Below are positions 1 through 36,307 of a stretch of 57,314 nucleotides of DNA, in pieces. Source of the stretch: Dehalococcoidia bacterium (lineage in GTDB: Bacteria; Chloroflexota; Dehalococcoidia; Lucifugimonadales; Lucifugimonadaceae); contig JAAXHR010000342.1 of the NCBI GenBank assembly GCA_012270805.1, positions 1 through 57,314 on the forward strand, read 5' to 3'. A model generated the notes under the pieces. The model was not told the origin of the DNA and did not search any database. It worked only from the letters and a program-made list of their open reading frames with translations. The position numbers and the translations under genes are program-made. Each line of letters begins with the position of its first letter. The stretch's first letter is position 1.

Positions 1-10
1 CGTCTACAGC
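1..10. repeat. 10-nt terminal direct repeat CGTCTACAGC, identical to 57305-57314 (assembly overlap of a circular or circularly permuted genome)
   Basis: First and last 10 nt of the window are identical. The minus-strand operon continues logically across the junction. Confidence 0.6.
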
Positions 11-1377: not shown

Positions 1378-1547
1378 ATTTTTATGCAATCTGGACAGAG
1401 ACCGGCTCTGACCTTGGAAGGCCGAGACTTCACACCGCAGATGTTACACGGAATCTTTTTCAGGCTCCTACGACGATTACGTTTAACTGTTGCCGAAGAA
1501 CCCCGCTTACGACGGGCGGCTGAGTTGTCGCGGTGAGTCTTAGACAT
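1374..1547 (-). CDS. small basic zinc-ribbon protein
   Basis: ORF with CNICG...CPDC. GAGAGGAA lies upstream of ATG 1547. Stop overlaps the next start (ATGA). Confidence 0.5.
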   Translation of the reverse strand: MSKTHRDNSAARRKRGSSATVKRNRRRSLKKIPCNICGVKSRPSKVRAGLCPDCIKI

Positions 1548-2223: not shown

Positions 2224-2645
2224 CAGAATATCCTCACTCCGAGTTCTTTCGCTCTTGCCTTCACTCCGTCCCGTGTGTAGCCATCTGGCAAACCGTCGAT
2301 GTCCTTCACATCCTTGAACAACCCGATTCCTGTCCCGCGCCTAGCCCGTATTAACGGCACGGTCATGCGAAAGTCATTCCCGCGCCAAGTCTCATAGGTG
2401 ACGATACAGTATCGCACCTTGTCCTTCTTCCGGCGCTTCCTAGCCGGTCCAACTGGACGACCGTCGTCTTCGACCGGTGTCTGACGTATCTCGGTTGCTG
2501 ACTTCATCCCCATGAGCTTTTCGAACTTACACATCTTGCACATATCACCCTTGTCGTGATCGTCACGGGCAGCTTCGAGCGACTTGTACACGCCGAGTAC
2601 CGAAGTCACGTCCCAATCCGACGACTCGACAATCCAGACCTTCAT
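2223..2645 (-). CDS. hypothetical protein
   Basis: 140-aa ORF, translationally coupled on both sides. Confidence 0.6.
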   Translation of the reverse strand: MKVWIVESSDWDVTSVLGVYKSLEAARDDHDKGDMCKMCKFEKLMGMKSATEIRQTPVEDDGRPVGPARKRRKKDKVRYCIVTYETWRGNDFRMTVPLIRARRGTGIGLFKDVKDIDGLPDGYTRDGVKARAKELGVRIF

Positions 2646-3796
2646 CAGACAAAGTTCACATGGAGTGGGTCGGGACCGGATGAAGGTACTATCTTCTGTC
2701 CACGATTAACGTGATTGTTGAGCGCACGGTTCGTTAGGTCTTGGATACATAATTGTCCACACATACGCTTAGCGTCGAAGTTGTCAGACCGTAGATAGTC
2801 CATGACTTCCCAATATCGGTCAGACTTCCATATGTCCATCCATCGCTGTTCAACAATGTTCCCGATGTGAAATTTGGCGAATTTCGAGTTGAAAAGCATC
2901 CCACAGGGCGCGACAAGCCCCGTCCCGCTCATTTGTATTAGGAATGGTGGGCCATAGCAGCGGCTATAGTCTCGATTATTTCCAACTCCGATCTTGTTCC
3001 ACTTCACCACGACCTTGTACGTGTCCGTCGAGTATCCCTCAGCTTCTTTCAGCAACGGATACAGTGATTCGTAGCCTTCGTAATCCACGCCGAGGGAACC
3101 GTCTTCATCATCGCTGCAATGTTTGATGATGGCGTAGTCAACGTTTAGTTCCTTTCCGAGCTTGGCGAACGGTATGATCTGATCGGCGTCCTGGGGCATT
3201 AGCACCATCTGTATGCCAATAGTAACCGGCAAGTCGTGTACGGACTTGTACATCGTAGCGAAGCGAATGTTCTTCGTCACCCGTTCCCATGCCCGTTGGT
3301 TGAACGCCATGATGTCTTCGTAGCGCTCAGGTGTTCCGGCGCTGACATTGAATCTTAGGTATGTGAGGTGGGGAAGGACAGCCGAAAGCGATTCTTCGGT
3401 TAACATTCTACCGTTAGTGCCAGAGGCCATACTGATACCGAGTTCCGCCCCGCGTTGAATTGTGTGTGTGTAGATAGGATTGAGTAGCGATTCTCCGTCC
3501 GAAACCAGCGAAATCCCCCTAACACCCATCTCCGCGCTGTCTTCCAAGAATCCATCGATCACGTCCTTCGTTATCTCATGTTCTTCGTTAGCCTGTAGCA
3601 TCGCGTAGCAGAACGAACAGGCCGCGTCACACTTCCTTGTCAGCGCCATGTCGATTGTGATCGGCGCGATGCGTTCCCCGTTCTCCCACTGGCGAAGCCG
3701 ATCATAGTGGTACGCTATTTTTGTCCCGTCTAGGATCATCTGTTGATGTTCTTCCGCAACGGAAGCCTGTTCATGCGGTGTGTGCATCGGAAACAT
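2645..3796 (-). CDS. radical SAM enzyme with C-terminal Cys-rich (SPASM-like) region
   Basis: CDAACSFCYA (CxxxCxxC) about 55 aa from the N-terminus. Extra Cys cluster CGMLF...MCGQLC. AAAGGGAA RBS. Confidence 0.8.
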   Translation of the reverse strand: MFPMHTPHEQASVAEEHQQMILDGTKIAYHYDRLRQWENGERIAPITIDMALTRKCDAACSFCYAMLQANEEHEITKDVIDGFLEDSAEMGVRGISLVSDGESLLNPIYTHTIQRGAELGISMASGTNGRMLTEESLSAVLPHLTYLRFNVSAGTPERYEDIMAFNQRAWERVTKNIRFATMYKSVHDLPVTIGIQMVLMPQDADQIIPFAKLGKELNVDYAIIKHCSDDEDGSLGVDYEGYESLYPLLKEAEGYSTDTYKVVVKWNKIGVGNNRDYSRCYGPPFLIQMSGTGLVAPCGMLFNSKFAKFHIGNIVEQRWMDIWKSDRYWEVMDYLRSDNFDAKRMCGQLCIQDLTNRALNNHVNRGQKIVPSSGPDPLHVNFV

Positions 3797-3998
3797 TTAT
3801 TCCCTTTGATGAAATTGTGACGACGTGTAACTCACACGAAACTAACCCATCACCATAACGAAACCAATTTTTCGGTAGGGATACGGACGGCTGATTATAA
3901 CTTGTAGCAGTTCCGGTGGTTCCAACCATTACACGCATCCACGGTGCAGAGAATTCAACTTGACGGTGACATATAGAACATTCTGATTTCCTTCTCAT
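3771..3998 (-). CDS. hypothetical protein
   Basis: 75-aa ORF preceded by GGGGCGTGAAGGT, the same box as upstream of the ORF starting at 4125. Confidence 0.4.
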   Translation of the reverse strand: MRRKSECSICHRQVEFSAPWMRVMVGTTGTATSYNQPSVSLPKNWFRYGDGLVSCELHVVTISSKGINVSDAHTA

Positions 3999-4011
3999 AC
4001 CTTCACGCCCC

Positions 4012-4125
4012 TTAACTGTGTGTCCAAACGTCCCACGCTAGCCGTATCAACGCCCATACGAAAATTATAAAGGCAAAGGCAACTCCGACGCCTGAACCTA
4101 TCACTATCCACATCCAACAGGGCAT
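4012..4125 (-). CDS. small hydrophobic (single-TM) protein, 37 aa
   Basis: MPCWMWIVIGSGVGVAFAFIIFVWALIRLAW.... Start overlaps the upstream stop (TAATG) and is preceded by GGGGCGTGAAGGT. Confidence 0.35.
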   Translation of the reverse strand: MPCWMWIVIGSGVGVAFAFIIFVWALIRLAWDVWTHS

Positions 4126-4439
4126 TAGACCTTCACGCCCCGTAATCGTACCCGTAAGGCGTTCATGTCGCCGGTCGGTTCTAAGAATACCTCAATCCAC
4201 GGCCACATTGTACGAAGAAGCCTTTCAACTTCCAGAAGCGCCGATCCGCGTTCAGCTATCGACAGATCAGGCTTTACACATCGCAGGGTTATACGTCCGC
4301 GTCTATCAGCCCTGACGACTTCCCACCACAGAGCGATACGTGCCTTCGATACGACGCCCATGTTCACATCAACTAAGACGCGGCGATCTTCGTCGGACAT
4401 CGCTAGCCATTCCTTAGACGGTCGTGGATCGTATGTCAT
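4125..4439 (-). CDS. hypothetical protein
   Basis: 104-aa ORF, ATGA-coupled to the upstream small ORF. Confidence 0.55.
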   Translation of the reverse strand: MTYDPRPSKEWLAMSDEDRRVLVDVNMGVVSKARIALWWEVVRADRRGRITLRCVKPDLSIAERGSALLEVERLLRTMWPWIEVFLEPTGDMNALRVRLRGVKV

Positions 4440-4597
4440 ATATCCTCACAGTTACAGAACTCGTAGTGACCATATCCGTACCCGACGCCGGTGTACCCAT
4501 CGAGGACGAAGTGATGAACCATCATGTGTTGTTTAACTTGACGTTTTCGTTTTTCTTCCGGCGTCTCGGTAAACAACTTCTTCAACCATTGGATCAT
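4436..4597 (-). CDS. small hypothetical protein, 53 aa
   Basis: MIQWLKKLFTETPEEKRKRQ.... ATGA overlaps at both ends (with 4597..5580 and 4125..4439). Confidence 0.45.
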   Translation of the reverse strand: MIQWLKKLFTETPEEKRKRQVKQHMMVHHFVLDGYTGVGYGYGHYEFCNCEDI

Positions 4598-5580
4598 CAA
4601 AACGCCTCGATCCGTCCATCCCTCACAGGAAGAACATCATCGTCCAGTTGAACCGTCTGATGTGGAAGGCCGAGCATGTCAGCGGCCTTATGCCAGATAC
4701 GCGCCGCTGTCGGATACCACTGTCGTTCGAGATGTTCAGCGGTAGGGCACGGCGTATTCGGTGGCTGTACTAGCCCTACGCTGTATCCGGCCTGGGACAG
4801 ATTCGAAACTAGCCAGTCCGCTTGGCCGTGGGCGGTATCTACAACAACGATGGGAACATTATGTCCATGTAAAGAAGGCGGATACCAGTGAAGGAGTTCT
4901 TCGACAGGGTTAACAGTAGCATGAACACCAGAATCGTTCATCGCGTTTGCCGCCGCCATTGCTTCTAAAACACAATCACCTAGTGTCGTGAAGACAATCT
5001 TCGGGCTACGTGGAGGTTTCCGAATACCGTAATCCCATAACGCTTTTGAGTATTGATACATCCGGCGAGGCTCGATTATGATCGACGGCTTTCCTTCGAG
5101 ACATGATTTTCTAAAGAACCACTGAACCGTATGAGCGAACACCGGATAGTACACGTTCAGCCCAGGAACCGACTGTAGCCATCCGTGGAACGATTGGCTG
5201 TGAGTTGGGCCTTGCCCCCATCCACGACCGACCAGCATCCGTATGATGATCGGCAAGTTCTGGCCGCCATGAAGCCACGGCCATTTTGCAATCGTGTTTA
5301 CCATATGCTCGAAGGCCAGCAATGAGAACTCGGCCCTAGCGTGGACATATATGGGACGTAACCCGTTCGACGCCATCCCCGCCAACGCTCCGGTTAGCAG
5401 GTTTTCAGACAATGGTGTCTCGTAGACGCGATCAGGATACTTTTCGTGTGCCGCCTTCGTTGTTCCGAATATACCCTTCGGATCGGCGACACCTTCACCG
5501 AGAACGATAACAGATTCATCATCGTCCATTAACCGGACAGTCGTAGAGGCGATTTCCTGGGCATAAGTGACGGTAGACAC
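4597..5580 (-). CDS. ThDP-dependent enzyme, E1 beta / transketolase C-terminal-like subunit
   Basis: GEGVADPKGIFGTTK...YETPLSENLLTGALAGMASNGLRPI matches the pyrimidine-binding domain pattern of 2-oxoacid dehydrogenase E1 beta. Confidence 0.75.
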   Translation of the reverse strand: MSTVTYAQEIASTTVRLMDDDESVIVLGEGVADPKGIFGTTKAAHEKYPDRVYETPLSENLLTGALAGMASNGLRPIYVHARAEFSLLAFEHMVNTIAKWPWLHGGQNLPIIIRMLVGRGWGQGPTHSQSFHGWLQSVPGLNVYYPVFAHTVQWFFRKSCLEGKPSIIIEPRRMYQYSKALWDYGIRKPPRSPKIVFTTLGDCVLEAMAAANAMNDSGVHATVNPVEELLHWYPPSLHGHNVPIVVVDTAHGQADWLVSNLSQAGYSVGLVQPPNTPCPTAEHLERQWYPTAARIWHKAADMLGLPHQTVQLDDDVLPVRDGRIEAF

Positions 5581-5584
5581 TAGG

Positions 5585-5827
5585 CTAGTCCTTTACGTGG
5601 CTGTACGGCGATCCTCGAAAGCCTGAAGGGGTATCCGCAGCCCATAGATAGCCGTGAATGAAGCAACCCACTTCTAACCACTCTGCACAACTGGAGCAAA
5701 CATAGACAATCAAACTGATATTCCATTCGTGAAGGTGAAAGGCAAAGGTACACGTAACTCTGCCACTACATTTCGATAAGTAACGTAACCCTGTAAATAG
5801 AGGCACATTCTCACAATACTTAGGCAT
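5585..5827 (-). CDS. hypothetical Cys-rich protein
   Basis: 80-aa ORF in the operon gap. No recognisable domain. Confidence 0.35.
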   Translation of the reverse strand: MPKYCENVPLFTGLRYLSKCSGRVTCTFAFHLHEWNISLIVYVCSSCAEWLEVGCFIHGYLWAADTPSGFRGSPYSHVKD

Positions 5828-5989
5828 CTACTTCACTACTGAGACTATCACTTCGACCAGTACCATCAAAAACCATATCCAAAACAGAAATAAGACAATC
5901 CCCATCGGGACGAAGACGAAAAGCCATATTGCACATCCGACTGCCATGTCCATAACCGAAAGCCTGTCGTCCTCCGGCTTTTTCGCCAT
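5828..5989 (-). CDS. small membrane protein, 53 aa
   Basis: MAKKPEDDRLSVMDMAVGCAIWLFVFVPMGIVLFLFWIWFLMVLV... Confidence 0.4.
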   Translation of the reverse strand: MAKKPEDDRLSVMDMAVGCAIWLFVFVPMGIVLFLFWIWFLMVLVEVIVSVVK

Positions 5990-5993
5990 CTAC

Positions 5994-6893
5994 TCACGAT
6001 CTGTCTCCCACCTTCTCGAACGCTTCCCTGACCTCGGTGTTGACCGCAGACCATATCTTCTTCATCGCGTGTTGACCGTGTTCACCTTCGATCTTAGCAC
6101 CGAGTAGGTCAACGGGATCGCGGTCCATATGCCACTGCCCTTCATCTTCGAGCGACCGGTATCCCATGTCCCAATCGTCTTCCATACCAACGTGTGCCTT
6201 ATACCGATAGGTGAAGATTGAGACGAAGGCAGGTCGTTCAATGGCTAATGAACTATTTACAGTCCTGAATACCGCCTCACAGCCATCTGCATAACGGTCT
6301 AAAACCTTCTCACGAAAAGGTTTTGATGGAAATTTTGACCCCTGCCGGTACTTCAACGCCGTCTGTGTTGCATACCCGTTATCCTCCATCACGAACAGGA
6401 TCGGCAGCTTCCAGAGCGCCGCTAGGTTCAGTGCTTCCCAAAACTGGCCCGTCTCAGGAACAGAGTCGCCGAAGTAGGCTACAGCAACCGCCTGGGATTT
6501 CTGGCGCTGAAGGGCCAGCGCCGCGCCAACTGCAACGCTGACACAATCCCCGACGACCGCAAACGATCCCATGAAGCCGCAACGTGGATCAGTAAGATAC
6601 ATAGAACCACCATAGCCGCCAGTACAACCGTCCGGTTTCCCGTATAGCTCGGCAACCATAGCGTCAAGACTACCGCCCTTTGCAAGATAGGGCGCGTGTG
6701 ACCTGTGCGATGCGTAGACAAGGCTTCCCTCCGGCAATGCCATCATCGTTCCGACCGCCGCCGCCTCCTGGCCGACGCTGAGGTGTACAGGAGTTTTCAT
6801 CTGTCCGGCTGGATACCGCTCGATTATCGCTTCCTCGACCTTTCGGATACGGTACATCTGACGGTAGGCTTCGAGTTCGTTGAAGTTACTCAC
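5994..6893 (-). CDS. ThDP-dependent enzyme, E1 alpha-like subunit
   Basis: HLSVGQEAAAVG plus ThDP-binding motif GDSVPETGQFWEALNLAALWKLPILFVMEDNGYA. Confidence 0.8.
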   Translation of the reverse strand: MSNFNELEAYRQMYRIRKVEEAIIERYPAGQMKTPVHLSVGQEAAAVGTMMALPEGSLVYASHRSHAPYLAKGGSLDAMVAELYGKPDGCTGGYGGSMYLTDPRCGFMGSFAVVGDCVSVAVGAALALQRQKSQAVAVAYFGDSVPETGQFWEALNLAALWKLPILFVMEDNGYATQTALKYRQGSKFPSKPFREKVLDRYADGCEAVFRTVNSSLAIERPAFVSIFTYRYKAHVGMEDDWDMGYRSLEDEGQWHMDRDPVDLLGAKIEGEHGQHAMKKIWSAVNTEVREAFEKVGDRS

Positions 6894-16600: not shown

Positions 16601-16875
16601 GCCTGGGCGCGGAGGTAGATAGCTCGATATGCCGGTACGGACTGTGCATACTGACGACCGTAGACTTCCGGTGCCCAGGAACGGGAGTCTTCATCAACAC
16701 CGGTAGTACGTGCCCGAACAATATCTTCGAGCGTCGCCTTTTGATTGGACTCCGTTAGCGGCTGATAGGTGCCGTCAGCGTTGACAACAACCCACTGGCC
16801 GTTGACATCATCCGGTATCTGTGGCGTTGATGTCTTGGCCCACTGGAGCGGGTTGATCCACTTCTGCCAGTCCAT
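13657..16875 (-). CDS. portal protein fused to a Mu F / SPP1 gp7-like head morphogenesis domain, interrupted by an intein
   Basis: Sits directly downstream of TerL. The N-terminal ~470 aa are portal-like. Residues ~600-727 are MuF-like, ending in ...AKNTINCR/C. A Hint domain is inserted inside the NCRC motif. Confidence 0.8.
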   Translation of the reverse strand: MDWQKWINPLQWAKTSTPQIPDDVNGQWVVVNADGTYQPLTESNQKATLEDIVRARTTGVDEDSRSWAPEVYGRQYAQSVPAYRAIYLRAQAVRSAPLQVMRRRTDGDPEPVEDNHPVQELLNRVNPFWSAGDLLESLETYLCLYGSAFWFLDREGSLTGIPKTIWPLRPDRVKIIGGKVNDVQDFQNSDYIVGYEYHAGTMKVSLTTDEVVWFRRFNPLSELAGLSPVAPARATLDMGRNATMYNNRFFVNGAMPSTLVFVTNHALSDEQAKEFYKRLDKRHGGAVNAHKPMLWDGTAGEPKNIGLTQRDMEFLKTLEWTVEDAARVWGVPVPLMMSMVQSTFNNLKESRVWFYTGTIEPEWSFISEEINELFIPLVSGGRGRSDIFVTFDTSQILPLQEAMTELYERDRADIDSGVLTINEVRAKRNLEPVAWGDVWWAKGVVTPVEDATIEVESSEAAFGEDEERRYKALPQPDLDAVAKAFSDRYDAGVTGFSAMQRRLFERQRRDVIRRLNDMVPKGITEVVWEGEIPHAVHRQGPSSPLFHPADWLETFKDSGERLIATMLITEGRDHSDEFGLGGIDTDAPEIDEWVKDRTDFWARRVNDETARMIVNEMAQGLAAEESIPDLQRRVENVFAFNDTVRSERIARTEILGAANQGHLEAYRQSGVVEEKRWIATLDERTTRPDHLAAHRQVVPFESKFIVGGELLDAPGVGGSAKNTINCRCVPGETFVRASGIEAVTRRWYEGDLVEITTSSGYKLAGTPNHPILTDTGWVGLGRLSKGDNVAHSSRGNDFFTPLSRPDVDDMPTPISQVYDTLSLSPLVGGAAHRVRGSVMQFHGDGRRGHVDVVFPDDVLWNQRQTGVFEQLAEFKLSLTERKMGLTGDPASDFRVLQSQFVGIRASTGCYSLGTKPSVDNVPVSSVVLGDSINRHAGLVEHGNFGFVNTFSGAASRRSPFTNNPLSLSRSSENAAFYDGRAKSFVSNMEFPTEIVDTPTSDVGFDRIVNITITRFAGHVYNLQTPDFTFEANGIITHNCTVAPVVKSARKAANLPEPRALPEASKNGHAVVS
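13762..14694 (-). mobile_element. intein (311 aa) inserted in the MuF-domain NCRC motif
   Basis: Starts CVPGETFV...GDLVEITTSSGYKLAGTPNHPILT (blocks A/B). Ends VYNLQTPDFTFEANGIITHN followed by +1 Cys (CTVAP). Excision restores INCR-C. Confidence 0.8.
13822..14622 (+). CDS. putative homing endonuclease (tandem HTH motifs + Vsr/DUF559-like PD-(D/E)XK domain), encoded antisense inside the intein
   Basis: ORF open from 13765. GGAG lies 9 nt upstream of ATG 13822. HTH-like SIDNLSREFHIGYKRLRSTI and SVNAIAKHYGTNRNVIDARL. C-terminus is GEYNIDMASPPIAVELH...RERQRIVDLTNRGWHIIYVW. Confidence 0.6.
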   Translation: MTRKACDRNVDDAVKAYIAGGSIDNLSREFHIGYKRLRSTIVERGVLRTPAETERIIRERATATRRARKGIDESEVAMLYESGMSVNAIAKHYGTNRNVIDARLRAQGITPRGRSDANKLRLQHPEVRGRITRKAHLSLGEGELELRQLLEDSGLSLVPQYIVGEYNIDMASPPIAVELHNRATNPVSRTAYKGRERQRIVDLTNRGWHIIYVWTRKRRKEVITPAAVRDVISFAQSAKPNPSGIGQYRVIRGSGELIAAGCGDLD

Positions 16876-22170: not shown

Positions 22171-23001
22171 TTGAACAAACAGAAGGTATACAACACAACT
22201 GAATTGCGAGAGGTTGACATATCTCCGCAGCTAGCCGAGGAAATGCTTACTCGGAATGGACACAACCGCCCGATGTCGGAGAGACGTGCCCAACGACTAG
22301 CCGAGCGGATCAAACGGGGCGAGTGGCGGTATAACGGCGAGTCGATCATCGTAGATTGGCACGACAACATCCTCGACGGTCAGCATCGTTTGTGGGCGAT
22401 ATTCCTGTCAGGTAAGACTGTCAAGTCGGCCATAGTCTATGGGATTGATCCTGCCACGTTCACAACAATTGACGTTGGTCGCGGGCGGTCAAGTGCTGAT
22501 TCCCTCGCCGTGTTTGGATACCAGAACACGTCTTCATTGTCCGTCGCCGCTCGGATAATCTACAACCTCGAACTGAACGCCGAACAATATCAGGACGCTT
22601 ACGGCGTTTCGAACGAAGCGATCATCGACATCGTAGAGCGCCATCCTGGGTTAATCGAGTCCACCGCGAAGTGTCTTTCCTGGGGATCAAGAACGGGACT
22701 CGGCAGAGGGCGCACAGCAGGACTACACTACCTGTTCAGTCAGGTTAACCAGGAACAGGCGGATACGTTCGTGGCAGATTTCGCCAACGGGACCGGTGTC
22801 GTTGCAGAGAACGACGCCTTTATCCGGTTACGGGACCGCCTGCGGGACGCAAGGATGTCTGCCACTGTCAACATCGACGTTGCAACTCAGCTAGCGTTGG
22901 TAATTAAGGCGTGGAATATGTACCGGACCGGAAAGGTACTACGGCACGTTGCATGGAAGCGCACCGGCGAAAAGCCTGAACCGTTCCCGAAGCCTGTCTA
23001 G
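22171..23001 (+). CDS. ParB-like nuclease domain protein
   Basis: NILDGQHRLWAI motif (ParB/Srx DGxHR). TTG start after AGAAAGGAAAT. Confidence 0.65.
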   Translation: MNKQKVYNTTELREVDISPQLAEEMLTRNGHNRPMSERRAQRLAERIKRGEWRYNGESIIVDWHDNILDGQHRLWAIFLSGKTVKSAIVYGIDPATFTTIDVGRGRSSADSLAVFGYQNTSSLSVAARIIYNLELNAEQYQDAYGVSNEAIIDIVERHPGLIESTAKCLSWGSRTGLGRGRTAGLHYLFSQVNQEQADTFVADFANGTGVVAENDAFIRLRDRLRDARMSATVNIDVATQLALVIKAWNMYRTGKVLRHVAWKRTGEKPEPFPKPV

Positions 23002-23010
23002 GCAAAAGTA

Positions 23011-23104
23011 AAGGCCGGATCAGTGTTGGCATGTCATGAGCGTAACACTGGCAGCGACAATCTCTTAGGGGGGCAGATTGCGATGTGTGAGGCTGATCCG
23101 GCCT
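23011..23104 (+). other. structured element closed by a 13-bp stem
   Basis: AAGGCCGGATCAG (23011-23023) pairs with CTGATCCGGCCTT (23092-23104). Inner hairpin CAGTGTT...AACACTG. No T-tract follows. Confidence 0.4.
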
Positions 23105-23145
23105 TACTCGCATAGTACAATACTCAACACGACGGAGGTCAAGAC

Positions 23146-25664: not shown

Positions 25665-25703
25665 GGCGGGTGATGGAGCCATCTGTCACCCGCCTTTGTT
25701 TTT
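25665..25703 (+). terminator. rho-independent terminator
   Basis: GGCGGGTGA-N12-TCACCCGCC followed by TTTGTTTTT. Confidence 0.7.
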
Positions 25704-25716
25704 GAAAGGAAAACTC

Positions 25717-26574
25717 ATGGCAACATATTACAAACTGGCCCGCCCCGACGGGTTCGATTTCTACAGTGGGAAGACGATCAACTACCGTGAAAACATCGGG
25801 AAGACCGTTCTCTGCCCTCCTTCCGACTGGCCGAACCGCATTAGGGAAGGAGTGTGGCGTCTATGCACCACCGACGTACTCCACGCATCCGACACCGCAG
25901 AGAAGTGTTTCGTCGGAGCGAAAGTTCCCTGTTCTCTTTACCGAGTTGAGGGTACGCCCGTGGTTGAACATTACGAAAAGGCGGGGTTTGCAGAGTTATA
26001 CGTCCTTGAAGAACTCGACCCCGCCGAACACTTTAAGTGGAGGTATCAAGAGGCTGTCAGCCCCATGCATCCTCTGAAAATCAGGCCTTCCGATATAACC
26101 GAATCTCAAATCTCACTTGTTCGTGCGTGGGCTTCGGTCTGGAATTCGGTCACGGATTCGGTCAGGGCTTCGGTCTGGGCTTCGGTCACGGATTCGGGAA
26201 GGGATTCGGTCTGGGATTCGGTCTACGCTTCGGTCAGGGATTCGGTCTGGGCTTCGGTCAGGGATTCGGTCTGGGATTCGGTCTGGGCTTCGGTCAGGGA
26301 TTCGGTCTGGGATAAGGTCAGGGATAAGGTCAGGGATTCGGTCTGGGATTCGGTCAGGGCTTCGGTCAGGGCTTCGGTCTGGGCATATACCGGTCACATA
26401 TTCGTCCCTGTTGTAGATACCTGGAAATACGTCACCCCTTTTGAGGGTCAATACCCGTTCCAGCCTGCCGTTAACCTGTGGATGCAGGGGTTAGTCCCAA
26501 GTTTCGATGGCAAGCGATGGCGACTACACGGCCACGAAGACGCCCGAATACTATGGCAAGGACAGATAACATGA
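25717..26574 (+). CDS. protein with 21 tandem (A/D)SV(W/R) tetrapeptide repeats
   Basis: Start MATYYKLARPDG after GAAAGGAAAA. Central segment is ASVWNSVTDSVRASVWASVT...DSVRASVRASVW. Confidence 0.7.
   Translation: MATYYKLARPDGFDFYSGKTINYRENIGKTVLCPPSDWPNRIREGVWRLCTTDVLHASDTAEKCFVGAKVPCSLYRVEGTPVVEHYEKAGFAELYVLEELDPAEHFKWRYQEAVSPMHPLKIRPSDITESQISLVRAWASVWNSVTDSVRASVWASVTDSGRDSVWDSVYASVRDSVWASVRDSVWDSVWASVRDSVWDKVRDKVRDSVWDSVRASVRASVWAYTGHIFVPVVDTWKYVTPFEGQYPFQPAVNLWMQGLVPSFDGKRWRLHGHEDARILWQGQIT
26131..26382 (+). repeat. 21 x 12-nt tandem repeat (consensus GATTCGGTCTGG / GCTTCGGTCAGG)
   Basis: Counted directly. Lacks stops in 3 plus frames and 1 minus frame, which generates spurious ORFs. Confidence 0.9.
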
Positions 26575-26876
26575 CGGTTGAACATGAACCGGATTGGATC
26601 GTCCTAGACGGCCCGTGGATCGTAGTACCGCTCGAAGACGATCAACAATATCGAGAATATTCAACACTGGTCTGTTGCTTCACCTGTGCCGGTGCGGTAG
26701 AAGACCACGACGCTGAACCCCGAACGATCCGCGACGAATACAACTACCCACGACCAGCGGCACAGCTAGTCGTTCCGTTGAACGTAGCTGGCCTCCGGTA
26801 CGCGACCGAAGCCGAGCTAGAGGATTTCTGGAAACGTCGGTTCGATGTACAAACGACCCACTTCCGTGTAACATAG
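26571..26876 (+). CDS. hypothetical protein
   Basis: Start MTVEHEPDW is ATGA-coupled to the repeat-protein stop. Confidence 0.55.
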   Translation: MTVEHEPDWIVLDGPWIVVPLEDDQQYREYSTLVCCFTCAGAVEDHDAEPRTIRDEYNYPRPAAQLVVPLNVAGLRYATEAELEDFWKRRFDVQTTHFRVT

Positions 26877-26932
26877 TCCCCAAGAGGTCGGTGTCACCTT
26901 CCCTTACCCGCGACACCGCCCTCCGTTGTGTG

Positions 26933-26981
26933 AAGTCCCGCGTCTGTCTTTATCCCTCCAAGATGTGAACAGGCGCGGGAC
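26933..26981 (+). terminator. long hairpin (14 bp, one U:G) followed by GTTTCATTC
   Basis: AGTCCCGCGTCTGT ... ACAGGCGCGGGACT. Confidence 0.4.
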
Positions 26982-26996
26982 TGTTTCATTCAAGCC

Positions 26997-27172
26997 GAAC
27001 CGGATAGCTAGACGAAGACTGCACATCAAGTGTGCTACACCTGAAAAAGTAGCCGATGTTGAGTTGTTAAGGTAATACCTCCGTGATAACGGAGAACGGC
27101 GATTAAAGCACCGTCGTCCCCTAATCTCGCAGTCTACGGGAGTCGGCCCCGTTCACGTCTAGCTATCCGGTT
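26997..27172 (+). ncRNA. structured element 1 (176 nt) closed by a perfect 17-bp stem
   Basis: AACCGGATAGCTAGACG pairs with CGTCTAGCTATCCGGTT. Inner stem AGACTGC/GCAGTCT. Hairpins CTCCGT-GATA-ACGGAG and CGGGAGTCGGCCCCG. Strand not determined. Confidence 0.5.
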
Positions 27173-27176
27173 CTAG

Positions 27177-27349
27177 GACTGGACAGCCGCATGAAAGATC
27201 GCACCATTCAGATGTCGGATTCAGGCTCTAGTGGCTAGAGGCGGCTGTATCTGTGCTTCTCAGACACCGCCCACCTGTGGGATTACGGACCGTATGTTGC
27301 AGGCGCTATCTGCGGGAGTCGGTCCCGTGTATCGTGCGGCTGTCCAGTC
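27177..27349 (+). ncRNA. structured element 2 (173 nt) closed by a perfect 15-bp stem, paralog of element 1
   Basis: GACTGGACAGCCGCA pairs with TGCGGCTGTCCAGTC. Hairpin CGGGAGTCGGTCCCG sits in the equivalent 3' position. Inner stem AGATCGCACC/GGCGCTATCT is imperfect. Confidence 0.5.
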
Positions 27350-27371
27350 TTTAGAAAGGAACAGAAGACCT

Positions 27372-28136
27372 ATGCAACACTACTCGACGGAAGTCATGGC
27401 CGGTCGGATCAACAAGCGGCGATCTGTGACGACCGGTGAAGGATATGTTCGCCGTAAACAGAAGACGGAAAAACAGAGGATGCGTGATCTAATAATCACG
27501 GAGCTTTCACTTCGACACTGGCCCAACGCTCTGAACGTCCTCACATTCCCGTCGATACACTGGTCGTTCGAGAACGATCTAATCAACAAGAGGGAACGAC
27601 CGCGTGACCTCCAGCGGGGCTACGTCAACGCGACGATCATCACCGCTATCGAGCGAGAGACGCCGATCTTCAGGGCCGCTGCGCTCCGTATGCCAGGGAC
27701 ACGCGACGGTGAGATTCACATTCTCGAAACGCCTCCGTGGGCCAGTGCCGCCGTTCGTACTCGAAAGATCGGTAGGTTCTATCAAACCGACTTCGAATCG
27801 TTAGCGGCGAAACAGGATTACGTGTACGATGCAGCGTGGCTCGACTTCAACGGGCCGCTGTCGCCGAAGCTGGTCGCTCACATTATTTCGTTCTGGTCGA
27901 GAAAGATCAGATGGAAGATGTTCGTCACCGTCATGCACGGACGGTACACGCCAGACGCGATGGAATCGATTGAACGGTACGGATCGCCGGAGGAATGGCT
28001 GTCGTCGTCGCTGACCGATAGCCGTCAGATCATGTCGGAGCGGTATCGGGACAACATGACGATGATCCAAATGGGATTCGTCAAGACGTTTGACCTGTTC
28101 GATACTACAGACCTTTTGAAACTGCTGGAGGGCTAG
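27372..28136 (+). CDS. hypothetical protein
   Basis: Start MQHYSTEV after AGAAAGGAACAGAAGACCT. The longer ORF from 27231 would overlap structured element 2. Confidence 0.6.
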   Translation: MQHYSTEVMAGRINKRRSVTTGEGYVRRKQKTEKQRMRDLIITELSLRHWPNALNVLTFPSIHWSFENDLINKRERPRDLQRGYVNATIITAIERETPIFRAAALRMPGTRDGEIHILETPPWASAAVRTRKIGRFYQTDFESLAAKQDYVYDAAWLDFNGPLSPKLVAHIISFWSRKIRWKMFVTVMHGRYTPDAMESIERYGSPEEWLSSSLTDSRQIMSERYRDNMTMIQMGFVKTFDLFDTTDLLKLLEG

Positions 28137-28137
28137 T

Positions 28138-28401
28138 GTGGAACCTCAAGATCAAATCTCCCGCGAAGCGGCAATCGTCAGGCTCGAAGTTGCCGCCCCT
28201 GACCTACTCGAAGCATGTAGGACGCTTGTTGATTGGGTTGAAACAGGCAGGGAAGACCTTAGCGATCCGTCCGTTGGGTTGTACAGCAATCCTGACTATT
28301 GCCTCCTGTGCCAACCTGGGATGCCGGACGATCCCAGGCACGTTGACGATTGTCCTGTCGTTCTGGCAATGGCCGCGATAGAGAAGGCCGAGGGTAGTTG
28401 A
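28138..28401 (+). CDS. hypothetical protein
   Basis: 87-aa ORF with a GTG start. Confidence 0.5.
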   Translation: MEPQDQISREAAIVRLEVAAPDLLEACRTLVDWVETGREDLSDPSVGLYSNPDYCLLCQPGMPDDPRHVDDCPVVLAMAAIEKAEGS

Positions 28402-28427
28402 CATATCGACGCCGGTCGGCATATCAT
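28398..28427 (+). promoter_or_regulatory. sigma70-like promoter TTGACA-N18-TATCAT
   Basis: Read directly at 28398-28403 and 28422-28427. Confidence 0.45.
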
Positions 28428-28434
28428 CGCTGTT

Positions 28435-28571
28435 GACTGAACTCAGTAGATGAATCACAATAGCTATATCGTCCGGCGAGTATCGTCCAAATCTATTCGA
28501 TCCTAGCTGGCCGGACACCAGAACAATCGCCCCGACCGCTGAGTTCAGTCACCTCACACAAGGTCGGGGCG
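28435..28571 (+). promoter_or_regulatory. structured leader with mutually exclusive helices upstream of the HNH gene
   Basis: Stem GACTGAACTCAG/CTGAGTTCAGTC (28435-46 / 28539-50) encloses GTCCGGC/GCCGGAC. Its 3' arm lies in the loop of hairpin CGCCCCGACC/GGTCGGGGCG (28528-37 / 28562-71), which is followed by TTGTGCGTT. Confidence 0.4.
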
Positions 28572-28593: not shown

Positions 28594-29121
28594 GTGGTTC
28601 TAGTAAATATGGCCGACTGTGTTGAATTCGCCCCGCATAAAGGCGTACTTGTGCTTCAGAAAACATTGAAGATTACGGCTGACGACCTTGCATGGATGGC
28701 AGTTACGGCGCTAAAGCACATGGAGGATGAATTATTCACATCGGCGTATAAGAAAAACCATCGTAATGAATTCTATAAGGTCGTTGTCGAAAAATACGGG
28801 CGTTTTGAAGTTAGGATTTCATATCAAGAATTTGAGTCACTTCTTAAAATCGCACGTCTCAATTCAATCACACGCAGTAAGAAACAAGAATTGATTAAAG
28901 ATCGGCGACAGGAATTCCAGCGATCACGGAAGTACATTATGTTAGCAATGATCGAGGATGGACACATCTACGCCTGCAATGAGTGTCATTCATCGTCTGA
29001 TATTACCATCGATCATGTGGTTCCTCTTTCAAGAGGCGGTTCAGACGAATTAGAGAATCTTCAATTCCTCTGTCGTTCATGTAACAGCCGAAAATCTGCG
29101 AAGGTGAACAGTAGTGCATAG
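28594..29121 (+). CDS. HNH endonuclease
   Basis: CNECHSSSDITIDHVVPLSRGGSDELENLQFLCRSCNSRK. AT-richer than its flanks. Confidence 0.85.
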   Translation: MVLVNMADCVEFAPHKGVLVLQKTLKITADDLAWMAVTALKHMEDELFTSAYKKNHRNEFYKVVVEKYGRFEVRISYQEFESLLKIARLNSITRSKKQELIKDRRQEFQRSRKYIMLAMIEDGHIYACNECHSSSDITIDHVVPLSRGGSDELENLQFLCRSCNSRKSAKVNSSA

Positions 29122-29929
29122 GACGTTGGCCGAAAAGGTTCTGCCCTGTTCAATACCATCGGGACAAAAACTAACTCTGATCGCCCTTGCCGTTCACGCC
29201 GACGACGACGGGGCAAACTGTTTCCCTGGTCTACACCGCCTCATGCTCTACACTGGATTCTCAGATCGCGGAGTTCGCAACCACATTGAGAGCCTAATCG
29301 AAGACGGGTGGATACGAAGAACATCTTCGCGGACGGGTGGACGTGGACACCGTATAGGATATATTATCGACGCCGAAAAGGTGGAACGTCGTTCACTGTT
29401 TGAAGACGTAAAGGGTGAACCTAGTACCATGAATACAGTTCACCCTTCTGAAGAAAAGGGTGAACGTCGTTCCGTAAAGGGTGAACCTAGTTCAACAAAG
29501 GGTGAACGTCGTTCCGCTGCTATAAAGGAAGAAGACCAGATACTACCAACTACTGACCTTAATAATATGTCCGAAAAGCCGGAATGGTATCATCGTCTTC
29601 GGTTATACGATTCTCGCCTTGATCGGTCTGACCGATGGATACAGAACGTCGAGAAGGAATATCCCGACCGGAACCTAGCCGATGATGCCGAGGATGCTAT
29701 CGCGTGGCTTATCGCTAACGCTCATACCAAACGTGGCAATAAAAAAGACATTGGCCAGTTTTTCAAGAATTGGCTCAAGCCTAAAGATTGGCAAACGACC
29801 TCAGCGAAGAACGGCGTCGCACCGTCTACCAACGGCTCGAAGCCTATGAAGACTGACGAAGAACGCTACGCCGCTGGTGAGCTACGGAAGCCGAGCTTCA
29901 TCCCTGACGATATGGAGAAAGCGAAATGA
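29114..29929 (+). CDS. replication initiator-like winged-helix protein
   Basis: N-terminal LTLIALAVHADDDGANCFPGLHRLMLYTGFSDRGVRNHIESLIEDGWI. Contains internal iterons and sits upstream of the DnaC-like loader. Confidence 0.55.
   Translation: MHRTLAEKVLPCSIPSGQKLTLIALAVHADDDGANCFPGLHRLMLYTGFSDRGVRNHIESLIEDGWIRRTSSRTGGRGHRIGYIIDAEKVERRSLFEDVKGEPSTMNTVHPSEEKGERRSVKGEPSSTKGERRSAAIKEEDQILPTTDLNNMSEKPEWYHRLRLYDSRLDRSDRWIQNVEKEYPDRNLADDAEDAIAWLIANAHTKRGNKKDIGQFFKNWLKPKDWQTTSAKNGVAPSTNGSKPMKTDEERYAAGELRKPSFIPDDMEKAK
29376..29515 (+). repeat. iteron-like repeats AAGGGTGAAC (5 direct, 1 inverted): candidate replication origin
   Basis: Cores at 29378, 29411, 29456, 29477 and 29498, with an inverted copy at 29438-29447. 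The last three are spaced 21 bp apart. An AT-rich stretch follows at 29516-29570. Confidence 0.5.
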
Positions 29930-32673: not shown

Positions 32674-32711
32674 CTCTCGCCGATCCTCTAACACACAACG
32701 GAGGTCTACAT

Positions 32712-32924
32712 ATGCCTACAGCTTCTAACCTCAGCCTGAAGTCGTGTCCACGCTGTAGGGGCACGACTCACAAAACCCGCGACCACTACGGTGAATACGT
32801 CAACTGTCTTCGCTGTGGATGGTATGTAGACCTCCGTCACGACGAAGGTATTTCCATTGACGAACTCAAGGCGGCTTCCCCGCCGCATCCGAGAGCTACA
32901 AGCTACACTAGACGAACCGGTTGA
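32712..32924 (+). CDS. zinc-ribbon protein
   Basis: CPRCRG...CLRCGW. ACGGAGG RBS. Confidence 0.55.
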   Translation: MPTASNLSLKSCPRCRGTTHKTRDHYGEYVNCLRCGWYVDLRHDEGISIDELKAASPPHPRATSYTRRTG

Positions 32925-34885: not shown

Positions 34886-36307
34886 ATGAGACTGCCTCTA
34901 ATCCTCCGCACCGACGCTTACAAGAATTCACACCCGTGGATGTACCCGCCGAACACCGTGAACATGCATAGCTATTTCGAGTCACGTGGAGGTCTGTACA
35001 ACGAATACGTTATGTTCGGCATGTCCTACCTGATCGGCGAGTACCTTTCGCGGCGTATTTCAATGGGCGATATTGAGAAGTCGAGGGACTTCGTTACACG
35101 CATGGGTCTGCCGTTCCCCTATGACGGATGGTATCGGATAGCTCACGATCTCGACGGTCGTCTTCCAATCCACATCCGCGCGGTTCCCGAAGGTACTATC
35201 GTTCCAGCCGGTAACGTAATGTTCACCGTCGAGAGTACCGACCCTAAGACATGGTGGGTCGCAGGATGGGTCGAAACGATGATGGTTAGGTTGTGGTATC
35301 CGATCACCGTTGCAACCCGTTCATGGAACATCCGACAACAGCTTTACAGCTATCTTGAGAAGACATCCGACAACCCCGACGATCATATTGACTTCATGCT
35401 TCACGACTTCGGAGCGCGTGGAGTCAGTAGCGCCGAGTCTGCCGCCCTTGGCGGTGCCGCTCATCTACTGTCTTTCAACGGGACCGACACCCAGGAAGGC
35501 GCGTTCCTGTTGAACACTCACTACGGCGGGATGGGCTACTCAATCCCTGCCGCCGAACACGCCGTCATTACGGCATGGGGAAAAGATAGCGAAGTAGAAG
35601 CGTACAGAAACATCCTGAAGGCGTTCGCCGCGAAGGGAAAGACAGTCGCCGTCGTGTCGGACTCATACGACATATACAATGCCGTCGAAAAGCTGTGGGG
35701 TGAAGACCTTCGTCAACACGTCATTGACTCCGGCGCGGTCGTAGTTATCCGCCCTGACTCCGGCTATCCACCTGATGTCGTAGAACTTATCAGTCATACC
35801 CTCTCATCGGCTTTCGGTCACACTGTTACTGATAAAGGGTTCAAGGTTCTGCGACACGTCAAGATAATCCAAGGCGACGGAATAACGGAAGATACTCTTG
35901 AAACTATCCTCGACCGTGTAACGAGAGCAGGTTTCTCAACCGAAAACTATGCCTTCGGCATGGGCGGCGGTCTTCTTCAAGACCTGACACGGGATACCGG
36001 TGACTTCGCCTACAAGTGTTCGTCGGTCGGAATCGCTAACGACATGGGACAGCTTATCGAACAGCGTCCTGTGTACAAAGACCCTGTGGATGGGACTAAG
36101 ACTTCAAAACGTGGGCGTCAAGACCTCGTAAGACTCTACGACGGAACACTGACAACGAAGGCGTTAGAGTGGAGGAATACACCCTACGAGAACACCGCCC
36201 TTCAAACCGTCTTCTACAACGGGACGGCTGAGAACGGATGGGACTCGGTTGACGTGATGCGGCGACGGATGCATTCTTATAAACGGAGTGAAACTGTCAA
36301 CGCATAG
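34886..36307 (+). CDS. nadV: nicotinamide phosphoribosyltransferase
   Basis: LILRTDAYKNSHPWMYPP N-terminus plus overall length and pattern of the NAMPT family. Confidence 0.85.
   Translation: MRLPLILRTDAYKNSHPWMYPPNTVNMHSYFESRGGLYNEYVMFGMSYLIGEYLSRRISMGDIEKSRDFVTRMGLPFPYDGWYRIAHDLDGRLPIHIRAVPEGTIVPAGNVMFTVESTDPKTWWVAGWVETMMVRLWYPITVATRSWNIRQQLYSYLEKTSDNPDDHIDFMLHDFGARGVSSAESAALGGAAHLLSFNGTDTQEGAFLLNTHYGGMGYSIPAAEHAVITAWGKDSEVEAYRNILKAFAAKGKTVAVVSDSYDIYNAVEKLWGEDLRQHVIDSGAVVVIRPDSGYPPDVVELISHTLSSAFGHTVTDKGFKVLRHVKIIQGDGITEDTLETILDRVTRAGFSTENYAFGMGGGLLQDLTRDTGDFAYKCSSVGIANDMGQLIEQRPVYKDPVDGTKTSKRGRQDLVRLYDGTLTTKALEWRNTPYENTALQTVFYNGTAENGWDSVDVMRRRMHSYKRSETVNA

What the first reader, a model, noticed from the sequence alone, without database searches (positions are those of the whole stretch)
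26997..27349. Two tandem, paralogous ~175-nt elements, each closed by a perfect 15-17-bp stem
Element 1 (26997-27172) has ends AACCGGATAGCTAGACG / CGTCTAGCTATCCGGTT. Element 2 (27177-27349) has ends GACTGGACAGCCGCA / TGCGGCTGTCCAGTC. Only 4 nt separate them.

Both have a second inner helix and the same 3'-proximal hairpin: (A/G)CGGGAGTCGG(C/T)CCCGT at 27136-27152 and 27312-27328. They lie after a terminator-like hairpin and immediately upstream of ORF 27372..28136, whose function is unknown.

They are not CRISPR repeats. They are not an obvious retron either, since no reverse transcriptase is found anywhere in the window. No known ribozyme core was visible by eye. Candidate roles are Y-RNA-like Ro60 ligands, RNase III-processed sRNAs, protein-binding decoys or DNA-level cruciform sites.
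Basis: seen in the sequence. Interest (0 to 1): 0.65.

Follow-up and report, generated by a model that had tools for sequence, protein, structure and literature searches.

The report
Twin panhandle RNA-like elements in phage
Two neighbouring ~175-base stretches in an uncultured phage each fold into a long perfect stem with a shared side hairpin; they look like a pair of structured RNAs of a kind not yet catalogued, but their job is unproven.

Summary
Element 1 (26997-27173) closes with an 18-bp perfect helix. Element 2 (27175-27351) closes with 15 perfect pairs, or 18-20 if G.U pairs are allowed. Both then have one unpaired A, a 7-bp inner helix and the same 5-bp hairpin with loop AGUCGGY.

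Between the two copies all 18 outer pairs are kept: 6 by changes on both sides, 2 by a change to G.U. Pairing is therefore under selection.

They match no Rfam family. Exact-pattern scans of IMG/VR, the species genomes and JGI metagenomes found no relative. Five assemblies of the same phage are identical, so neither strand nor function can be settled by comparison. No RNA reads were found.

My best reading (0.4): they are plus-strand RNA modules in the early operon, cut out at their long helices by RNase III. The shared junction and hairpin would be a protein-binding site.

The Y RNA idea is weak. Ro60 lies 16 kb away on the other strand, with its own YrlA-like cluster beside it. The replication origin is elsewhere, as iterons inside the O-like gene. 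The downstream ORF has a SAM methyltransferase fold, but its relatives carry no such elements.

The parts
26884..26923 (+). H1: 12-bp hairpin with a pyrimidine-rich loop (ACCUUCCCUUACCCGC). It is the first module of the 495-nt non-coding stretch 26877-27371.
   Evidence: Inverted repeat I6; sequence.
26934..26982 (+). H2: 14-bp hairpin (one mismatch) with a 21-nt loop that contains CCCUCC.
   Evidence: Inverted repeat I5; not called as a terminator.
26997..27173 (+). Element 1, whole (177 nt).
26997..27014 (+). Element 1, P1 5' strand (GAACCGGAUAGCUAGACG). It pairs with 27156-27173 in 18 Watson-Crick pairs.
27016..27022 (+). Element 1, P2 5' strand (AGACUGC). It pairs with 27129-27135 in 7 Watson-Crick pairs. 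The unpaired A27015 separates P1 from P2.
27023..27128 (+). Element 1, variable apical domain with three predicted hairpins. It has little similarity to element 2.
27136..27152 (+). Element 1, conserved side hairpin ACGGG-AGUCGGC-CCCGU. UCA follows it, then the P1 3' strand.
27175..27351 (+). Element 2, whole (177 nt with the G.U-extended helix; the perfect core is 27177-27349).
27175..27194 (+). Element 2, P1 5' strand (AGGACUGGACAGCCGCAUGA). It pairs with 27332-27351 in 18 Watson-Crick and 2 G.U pairs.
27196..27202 (+). Element 2, P2 5' strand (AGAUCGC). It pairs with 27305-27311 in 6 pairs plus one C.U mismatch. One pair differs from element 1 by a compensatory C-G to U-A change.
27312..27328 (+). 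Element 2, conserved side hairpin GCGGG-AGUCGGU-CCCGU (closing G.U). GUA follows it, then the P1 3' strand.
27372..28136 (+). Downstream gene: 254-aa protein with a class I SAM-dependent methyltransferase fold (family motif DAAWLDFxGP). Its ribosome-binding site starts about 5 nt after the element 2 helix.
23011..23105 (+). Other long-range perfect stem in the same early block (13 bp enclosing 69 nt), just after the stop codon of ORF 22171..23001.
28434..28551 (+). Other long-range perfect stem (13-14 bp enclosing 92 nt). It begins about 7 nt after the best sigma-70-like promoter of the region (28398-28427), upstream of the HNH gene.
32698..32837 (+). Other long-range perfect stem (15 bp). Its 5' arm covers the GGAGG and the ATG of ORF 32712..32924.

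Best explanation
The two elements are paralogous structured RNA modules read from the plus strand. They are transcribed as part of the phage's early rightward operon, in the 495-nt gap between ORF 26571..26876 and the methyltransferase gene.

Each folds as a panhandle. An 18-20-bp uninterrupted terminal helix stacks on a 7-bp inner helix. The same 5-bp / 7-nt-loop hairpin branches from the 3' strand, and a variable ~105-nt apical domain sits on top.

Inferred mechanism:
- The long perfect helices are substrates for the host double-strand-specific RNase III.
- Cutting there separates the upstream and downstream cistrons.
- It leaves the methyltransferase mRNA and the upstream mRNA with structured ends.
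- It releases two stable RNAs of about 150 nt.
- The invariant parts are the helix core GGAYAGC/GCURUCC, the junction RYGAA(A)GA, and the hairpin loop AGUCGGY. Together they would form a common binding site for one protein. That partner is unknown.

Shown: the anatomy, the paralogy, the selection for pairing, and the absence from known families. Inferred: transcription, strand, RNase III cleavage, and protein binding.
For: Selection for pairing:
- All 18 P1 pairs are kept in both copies. Six changed on both sides, two changed on one side to G.U, and none is broken.
- P2 has one further compensatory change.

Strand:
- All three one-sided changes (two in P1, one in the hairpin) give G.U on the plus strand and A.C on the minus strand. 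This is weak evidence: 1 in 8 by chance.

Context:
- The elements lie in a block of plus-strand genes (20.7-36.3 kb). No sigma-70-like promoter or intrinsic terminator of their own was found on the plus strand.
- Perfect long-range stems are far above chance, and all five lie in this one block.
- One of them starts at the predicted transcription start of a strong promoter. Another covers the Shine-Dalgarno sequence and AUG of an ORF. Both make sense only as plus-strand RNA.

Coding and known families:
- The gap holds no ORF of 50 aa or more, apart from a GTG-initiated 5' extension of the methyltransferase frame at 27231.
- There is no Rfam match at E <= 10.

RNase III:
- A continuous helix of about 26 bp (P1 plus P2) is the kind of substrate bacterial RNase III cuts. 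This rests on established knowledge of T7 early mRNA sites and rRNA operon stems, not on a test here.
Against: - No transcript data. The only runs that hold the sequence are DNA runs, and three RNA runs with the same organism label have no reads.
- No homologue was found, so covariation rests on two paralogues only.
- The minus strand folds as well as the plus strand. For element 1 it folds better.
- The interior of element 2 is not more stable than shuffled sequence.
- Terminal inverted repeats that bind one protein would also co-vary, so the compensatory pattern does not by itself prove RNA.
- RNase III cleavage and a protein partner are pure inference.
Confidence: 0.4

Rival explanations
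1. Extra Y-RNA-like ligands of the phage Ro60 (TROVE) protein. The panhandle stem would carry the Ro60 site, and the variable apical domain would tether another protein such as PNPase.
For: - The phage encodes a TROVE/Ro60 protein (9621..11084).
- Y RNAs are panhandles closed by their 5' and 3' ends, and species usually have two to four paralogues (PMC4201824).
- Element 1 has an exact GNCGAAG (GACGAAG, 27011-27017) on the 5' strand at the top of P1. This is the motif proposed for bacterial Ro60 binding. CGAA was shown to matter for a phage Ro60 (PMC12135203).
- The authors state that Ro60-bound RNAs often escape bioinformatic detection.
Against: - The elements lie 15.9 kb from Ro60 on the opposite strand. 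Reported bacterial and phage Y RNAs lie within 4 kb on the same strand.
- They are 173-177 nt; characterised Y RNAs are 80-130 nt.
- There is no T or D arm and no YrlA or tRNA hit at E <= 10.
- Element 2 has UGAA, not CGAA.
- GNCGAAN0-1G occurs 1.2 times per kb in this window, so one hit in 353 nt is expected 0.4 times.
- The stems have no bulge.
- A better candidate sits directly upstream of Ro60: four repeated hairpin units, a YrlA-type T / acceptor-like / D module (24 bits) and a canonical T arm.
Confidence: 0.15
2. Purely cis-acting leader or intercistronic structures with no trans-acting RNA product. They would set the stability, processing or translation of the methyltransferase mRNA, or act on RNA polymerase as an antitermination signal after hairpin H2.
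For: - The element 2 helix ends about 5 nt before the ribosome-binding site of ORF 27372.
- The elements have no promoter or terminator of their own.
- Other long-range stems in the same operon block sit at a transcript start and over a start codon.
Against: - Eight relatives of the methyltransferase gene in IMG/VR are packed against their upstream genes, with no comparable leader.
- A simple stabiliser needs neither two 175-nt copies nor an invariant side hairpin and junction.
- An 18-20-bp perfect helix is poorly suited to a switch.
Confidence: 0.2
3. DNA-level elements: inverted repeats that serve as protein-binding sites or single-strand hairpins, or two decayed MITE-like insertions with 18-bp terminal inverted repeats.
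For: - Both strands fold equally well.
- Nearly all shared pairs are Watson-Crick.
- Size (about 175 bp) and perfect terminal repeats resemble MITEs.
- Both arms binding one protein would also give matched changes.
- The methyltransferase relatives lack the whole 495-nt gap, as if it had been inserted.
Against: - There are no target-site duplications at either element.
- There are no other copies in the window or in any collection scanned.
- The replication origin is accounted for by five ~20-bp iterons at 29377-29516 inside the O-like gene.
- No transposase, integrase or recombinase was found among the 38 ORFs scanned.
- A cruciform with a 140-nt loop is not expected in duplex DNA.
- The three one-sided changes are all wobble pairs on one strand.
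Confidence: 0.15
4. Retron-like or other guide-type non-coding RNA (msr/msd, bridge RNA, omega RNA) that works with an enzyme encoded nearby.
For: Flanking inverted repeats resemble retron a1/a2. The size is close to the roughly 177-nt bridge RNAs (from my own knowledge). The conserved scaffold with a variable interior is guide-like.
Against: No reverse transcriptase, IS110 recombinase, TnpB or IscB domain appears among the 38 ORFs scanned. The adjacent ORF has a methyltransferase fold. There is no Rfam hit.
Confidence: 0.03

Closest known systems
Bacterial and phage Y RNAs (YrlA/YrlB, Rfam RF02553; Yrl1/Yrl2 of Thermus phage phiLo)
   Same: - Panhandle closed by the 5' and 3' ends.
- Several paralogues per genome.
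- The genome encodes Ro60.
- Element 1 carries GNCGAAG on the 5' strand.
   Different: - Far from Ro60 and on the other strand.
- About 50% longer.
- Uninterrupted helix without a bulge.
- No tRNA-like T or D arms and no covariance-model match.
- Element 2 lacks CGAA.
- The phage already has a YrlA-like cluster next to Ro60.
RNase III processing stems (T7 early mRNA sites; the stems that enclose 16S and 23S rRNA in rrn operons)
   Same: Double-stranded helices formed by sequences that flank a structured RNA, placed between cistrons of a polycistronic transcript. The helix length (18-20 bp, about 26 bp with P2) fits the enzyme.
   Different: - T7 sites are single ~60-nt hairpins with an internal loop.
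- Here the helix encloses a 140-nt multi-branched domain.
- A conserved side hairpin is present, and the unit is duplicated.
- Cleavage is not shown.
Adenovirus VA RNA I/II and EBV EBER1/2 (from my own knowledge, not tested here)
   Same: Two tandem, paralogous viral RNAs of about 160-175 nt. Each has a terminal stem formed by its ends, a conserved central junction and a variable apical part.
   Different: - Those are eukaryotic Pol III transcripts with imperfect stems and known partners (PKR, La, L22).
- There is no sequence relation.
- No bacterial target is known.
- The resemblance is one of form only.
Retron msr/msd non-coding RNA
   Same: Flanking inverted repeats enclose a structured ~150-nt region.
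   Different: There is no reverse transcriptase in the window, and the inner structure is unlike msr/msd.
MITEs (miniature inverted-repeat transposable elements)
   Same: About 175 bp with perfect 15-18-bp terminal inverted repeats; non-coding.
   Different: - No target-site duplication.
- No further copies anywhere.
- The two copies differ in their repeats but keep them matched.
- Inner helices and a conserved hairpin are present.

Membership tests
Bacterial Y RNA (YrlA type) | Encoded within about 4 kb of the Ro60 gene and on the same strand (criterion of PMC4201824) | tested here: not met
   Ro60 is at 9621..11084 on the minus strand. The elements are at 26997-27351 in a plus-strand block, 15.9 kb away.
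Bacterial Y RNA (YrlA type) | GNCGAAN0-1G motif near the 5' end | tested here: inconclusive
   Element 1 has GACGAAG at 27011-27017, but 15 nt into the helix. Element 2 has GCAUGAAAG. The motif is expected 0.4 times by chance in 353 nt.
Bacterial Y RNA (YrlA type) | tRNA-like module (T arm, acceptor-like stem, D arm); match to Rfam RF02553 | tested here: not met
   No YrlA or tRNA hit at E <= 10 in 26800-27500. The same model gives 24 bits just upstream of Ro60. The loop AGUCGGY is D-loop-like by eye only.
Bacterial Y RNA (YrlA type) | Length 80-130 nt, with a long stem formed by the 5' and 3' ends | tested here: not met
   The stem is present, but the elements are 173-177 nt.
Bacterial Y RNA (YrlA type) | Bound by Ro60 | not testable with these tools
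   Needs EMSA or immunoprecipitation.
RNase III processing stem | Continuous double-stranded RNA helix of about two turns formed by flanking sequences | tested here: met
   P1 is 18 bp in element 1 and 20 bp in element 2. P2 adds 7 bp across a one-nucleotide bulge.
RNase III processing stem | Lies within a polycistronic transcript | tested here: inconclusive
   The flanking genes are on the same strand, and no promoter or terminator is predicted in the gap. There is no transcript evidence.
RNase III processing stem | Cleaved by RNase III | not testable with these tools
   Needs an in vitro cleavage assay or a comparison with an rnc mutant.
Retron non-coding RNA | Reverse transcriptase gene adjacent to the msr/msd region | tested here: not met
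   No RT domain in the 38 ORFs scanned. The adjacent ORF has a methyltransferase fold.
MITE / terminal-inverted-repeat transposon | Target-site duplication flanking the inverted repeats | tested here: not met
   The flanks are GCC/TAG for element 1 and TAG/TTT for element 2.
MITE / terminal-inverted-repeat transposon | Multiple dispersed copies | tested here: not met
   Only these two copies are in the window. None turned up in the collection scans.
Phage replication origin | Iterons bound by the initiator, next to or inside the initiator gene | tested here: not met
   Five ~20-bp iterons lie at 29377-29516 inside the O-like gene 29114..29929, not in the elements.
Any Rfam family (riboswitch, ribozyme, sRNA) | Covariance-model match | tested here: not met
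   Nothing at gathering score. Nothing inside the elements at E <= 10.

The most novel reading that the evidence does not exclude
The pair is a new class of phage-encoded panhandle RNAs that act in trans as protein decoys or scaffolds. They would be a bacterial-virus counterpart of adenovirus VA RNAs or of Y RNAs. The conserved helix core, junction and hairpin would capture one of three partners: a host factor that senses double-stranded or structured RNA (RNase III or a defence sensor), the phage's own Ro60, or the adjacent methyltransferase. The variable apical domains would give the two copies different partners.
Probability: 0.12. Interest if true: 0.8.

Novelty: new variant of a known kind. 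Interest (0 to 1): 0.5.

Why it matters
If these are RNAs, they would be a structured phage RNA with no family in Rfam, and a clean case of duplication with compensatory evolution.

The phage also carries other RNA-biology genes: Ro60 with a Y-RNA-like cluster, ten tRNAs, and a methyltransferase whose fold resembles RNA-modifying enzymes.

Phage non-coding RNAs that bind host or phage proteins are few, and each new one has opened a mechanism. Here, however, the element is known from one phage lineage only and has no expression data. For now it is a well-defined candidate for experiment rather than a discovery.

Tried and rejected
Known families:
- Rfam at gathering score over the whole window, and at E <= 10 over 26800-27500, gave only tRNAs elsewhere. 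Two meaningless weak hits fell on hairpin H2.

Close relatives:
- blastn/tblastn against GenBank phages found nothing.
- Protein-anchored searches of IMG/VR with the downstream ORF, the O-like initiator and DnaC found no close relatives.
- The upstream gene 25696..26574 belongs to a very large family, but synteny is not kept and no similar element follows it.

Same phage in other assemblies:
- Exact-protein look-ups returned five ENA contigs from four samples. Their 495-nt gap is 100% identical.
- Eight DNA runs hold the sequence. The four I laid on it showed no variants.
- Three RNA runs had no reads.

Pattern scans:
- Exact IUPAC patterns for the hairpin, and for the helix plus junction, were run on IMG/VR, the species genomes and JGI metagenomes.
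- All hits lacked a closing stem and look like chance. Many lie in coding sequence, for example an ABC transporter in Endozoicomonas.

Downstream methyltransferase:
- The family has 166 representatives.
- Eight IMG/VR loci have no upstream gap or element. A conserved partnership with that gene was therefore rejected.

Other ideas dropped:
- Replication origin: rejected after finding the iterons.
- Retron, bridge RNA or omega RNA: rejected for lack of a partner enzyme.
- A loop-to-interior pseudoknot: 6 bp are possible in element 1, but only 4 bp at a non-equivalent place in element 2. I judged this to be chance.
- A resemblance of P2 plus UA/UG plus the hairpin to the acceptor-like stem / UA / D-arm order of YrlA. 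I noted it by eye but did not accept it, because there is no T arm and the covariance model finds nothing.
- I did not build a covariance model, because only sequence already fetched could have been searched with it.

Full report
**What the window is.** It is an uncultured tailed phage. It carries a portal-MuF fusion with an intein, a large terminase, a capsid protease and capsid, and tail genes. It has ten tRNA genes and a TROVE/Ro60 protein at 9621..11084 on the minus strand. A block of plus-strand early and replication genes runs from about 20.7 to 36.3 kb. That block includes an HNH endonuclease, an O-like initiator, a DnaC-like loader and a RuvC-like resolvase. The phage has no close relative in GenBank phages or IMG/VR. 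Eight DNA runs hold the sequence: four labelled with one coded organism and four coral-reef metagenomes. The four I laid on it showed no variants. Five ENA contigs from four samples also carry the region, and their 495-nt gap is identical.

**The observation.** The 495-nt gap between ORF 26571..26876 and ORF 27372..28136 holds four stem-closed modules:
- hairpin H1 (26884-26923);
- hairpin H2 (26934-26982);
- element 1 (26997-27173);
- element 2 (27175-27351).

Element 1 has an 18-bp all-Watson-Crick outer helix P1. One unpaired A follows, then a 7-bp helix P2 and a ~105-nt interior. After the P2 3' strand comes the hairpin ACGGG-AGUCGGC-CCCGU, then three nucleotides, then the P1 3' strand. 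Element 2 has the same order. Its P1 is 15 perfect pairs, or 18-20 with G.U pairs. Its P2 has one mismatch. Its hairpin is GCGGG-AGUCGGU-CCCGU.

Such stems are far beyond chance. Perfect inverted repeats of 13 nt or more with a 60-250-nt spacer are expected 0.13 times in shuffled sequence. The whole elements fold with z = -6.7 and -5.6. So the description stands, with small corrections to the helix ends.

**Evidence that pairing is selected.** I aligned the elements without gaps in P1 (element 2 taken from 27176). All 18 pairs are standard in both copies: ten are identical, six differ on both sides, and two differ on one side and give G.U. None is broken. P2 adds one compensatory change and one mismatch. 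The hairpin adds one A-U to G.U change. Outside these parts and a 25-nt block around the hairpin (84% identical), the copies are barely alignable: 78 identical columns of 181. The scaffold is conserved and the interior is free to vary.

**Limits of the structural evidence.**
- Without P1, the interior of element 2 is no more stable than shuffles (z = -0.2). Element 1 is only mildly so (z = -2.3).
- The minus strand folds equally well.
- The only strand-specific signal is that all three one-sided changes are wobble pairs on the plus strand and A.C mismatches on the minus strand. That has a 1-in-8 chance.

**Context that favours plus-strand RNA.** Perfect long-range stems of 12 nt or more occur at only five places in 57 kb. 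All five lie in the plus-strand early block: 23011, 26997, 27177, 28434 and 32698.
- The one at 28434-28551 begins about 7 nt after the best sigma-70-like promoter in the region (TTGACA-18-TATCAT, 28398-28427). It would form the 5' end of the HNH and replication transcript.
- The one at 32698-32837 pairs the GGAGG and ATG of ORF 32712..32924 with a downstream segment.

Both make sense only as plus-strand RNA. This suggests the phage uses long-range helices as post-transcriptional devices. No plus-strand promoter or intrinsic terminator is predicted within the 495-nt gap. The two elements would therefore be part of a longer transcript.

**What it is not.**
- No Rfam family matches.
- It is not the replication origin. 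Five ~20-bp iterons (AAAGGGTGAACGTCGTTCC) lie at 29377-29516 inside the O-like gene, as in lambda.
- No reverse transcriptase, transposase, integrase, IS110, TnpB or IscB domain was found in the 38 ORFs scanned. This removes the retron and guide-RNA readings.
- There are no target-site duplications and no other copies, which argues against MITEs.

**The Y RNA question.** The phage has Ro60, and element 1 carries an exact GNCGAAG (27011-27017). That is the motif proposed for bacterial Ro60 binding (PMC4201824), and CGAA was shown to matter for a phage Ro60 (PMC12135203). Against this:
- The motif is expected 0.4 times by chance in 353 nt, and element 2 lacks it.
- The elements are 16 kb from Ro60 on the other strand.
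- They are about 50% longer than known Y RNAs.
- They have no bulge and no T or D arm, and give no YrlA hit.

Directly upstream of Ro60, on its strand, lies a 620-nt non-coding stretch. It has a promoter-like site and four repeated hairpin units. It also has a canonical T arm, and a T / acceptor-like / D module that scores 24 bits with the YrlA model. That is the natural Y RNA locus. I give the Y RNA reading 0.15.

**The neighbouring gene.** ORF 27372..28136 looked like an orphan in the word-indexed search. A full HMMER search found 166 representative relatives. With their alignment, AlphaFold gives pLDDT 91.7. Foldseek matches class I SAM methyltransferases, among them NodS, Trm1, RsmD/YhhF and TrmK. 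The family motif DAAWLDFxGP recalls, from my own memory, the Trm1-type DLDPFGS. Eight relatives in IMG/VR sit directly against their upstream genes and have no such elements. The RNA and the enzyme are therefore not a conserved pair.

**Search for relatives.** Exact-pattern scans for the hairpin and for the helix plus junction returned only hits without a closing stem. The scans covered IMG/VR, one genome per species, and JGI metagenome contigs.

One oddity remains. A 1.4-kb high-GC metagenome contig (L073) has TCTACGGGAGTCGGCCCCGT, then 3 nt, then GCTATCCGGTTC. That is the element 1 hairpin plus 12 nt of its P1 3' strand, with 6 nt missing. It lies in the gap between an Ada-like regulator gene and a tRNA-Ser gene, with no 5' partner. 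By my rough count this is unlikely by chance (below 0.001). I cannot explain it.

**Verdict.** The elements are real, paralogous and under selection for pairing. They belong to no catalogued family. My best reading (0.4) is that they are plus-strand RNA modules of the early operon, excised at their long perfect helices by RNase III, with the invariant helix core, junction and hairpin as a shared protein-binding site. The rivals are purely cis-acting mRNA structures (0.2), Ro60 ligands (0.15) and DNA-level inverted repeats (0.15). Transcription, strand, cleavage and partner are all inferred. They need the experiments listed under decisive next steps.

Noticed in passing
window 11085-11705 (minus strand): This is the likely true Y RNA locus, a 620-nt non-coding stretch directly upstream of Ro60. 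It has a promoter-like TTGACT-17-TATGCT (11636-11608). It has four repeated hairpin units GUAGUAAG-N8-9-UUACUUCGC (the third reads AUACUUCGC; the fourth starts CAGUAAG). It has a canonical T arm, CAGGUUCGAUUCCUG (11557-11543). It also has a YrlA-type T / acceptor-like / D module at 11265-11334 (Rfam YrlA 24 bits, below the gathering score).
   Followed up: partly
window 23011-23105, 28434-28551, 32698-32837: Three more long-range perfect stems (13-15 bp) lie in the same early block. One follows a stop codon, one starts at a predicted transcription start, and one covers the Shine-Dalgarno sequence and ATG of a small zinc-ribbon-like ORF. They share no sequence with the two elements.
   Followed up: partly
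window 29377-29516: Five ~20-bp iterons (AAAGGGTGAACGTCGTTCC) lie inside the O-like initiator gene 29114..29929. This is a lambda-type origin of replication.
   Followed up: yes
window 26128-26383 (gene 25696..26574): A 12-nt (36-nt) tandem repeat of about 21 copies lies inside a gene of a very large phage family (phrog_8332, over 3000 relatives). Copy number differs between assemblies of the same phage (products of 273, 285 and 292 aa). It is the only variation seen between the assemblies compared.
   Followed up: partly
window 27372..28136: This ORF has a confidently modelled class I SAM methyltransferase fold and belongs to a family of about 166 representatives with no Pfam model. Conserved motifs are LTMPGxxWxFE, ERD and DAAWLDFxGP. 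The substrate is unknown.
   Followed up: partly
L073 727-761 (JGI contig Ga0066388_101027108): This high-GC bacterial contig shares two co-linear blocks with element 1: 20 nt (hairpin) and 12 nt (P1 3' strand). They lie in the gap between an Ada/AraC-methyltransferase gene and a tRNA-Ser gene. There is no closing stem and no Rfam match. Unexplained.
   Followed up: partly
window 26884-26982: Hairpins H1 and H2 have pyrimidine-rich loops (CCUUCCCUUACCC; CUUUAUCCCUCC). The second contains CCUCC, which could pair with Shine-Dalgarno sequences. This recalls C-rich-loop sRNAs and the 'long hairpin with pyrimidine-rich loop' type of second Y RNA.
   Followed up: no
window 34886..36307 and 4..1389: A nicotinamide phosphoribosyltransferase (NAMPT) and a cytidylyltransferase-like/PfkB fusion are present. 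This looks like an NAD+ salvage pair of the kind phages use against NAD-depleting defences (the link to defence is from my own knowledge).
   Followed up: no
window 13657..16875: The portal protein is fused to a Mu F-like domain and carries an intein splicing domain.
   Followed up: no
window 2645..6893 and 53979..57078: Auxiliary metabolic genes are present: a radical SAM/SPASM protein, E1 dehydrogenase alpha- and beta-like subunits, a SIS-domain protein, a DegT aminotransferase and an NAD-dependent epimerase/dehydratase. This looks like a sugar-modification set.
   Followed up: no
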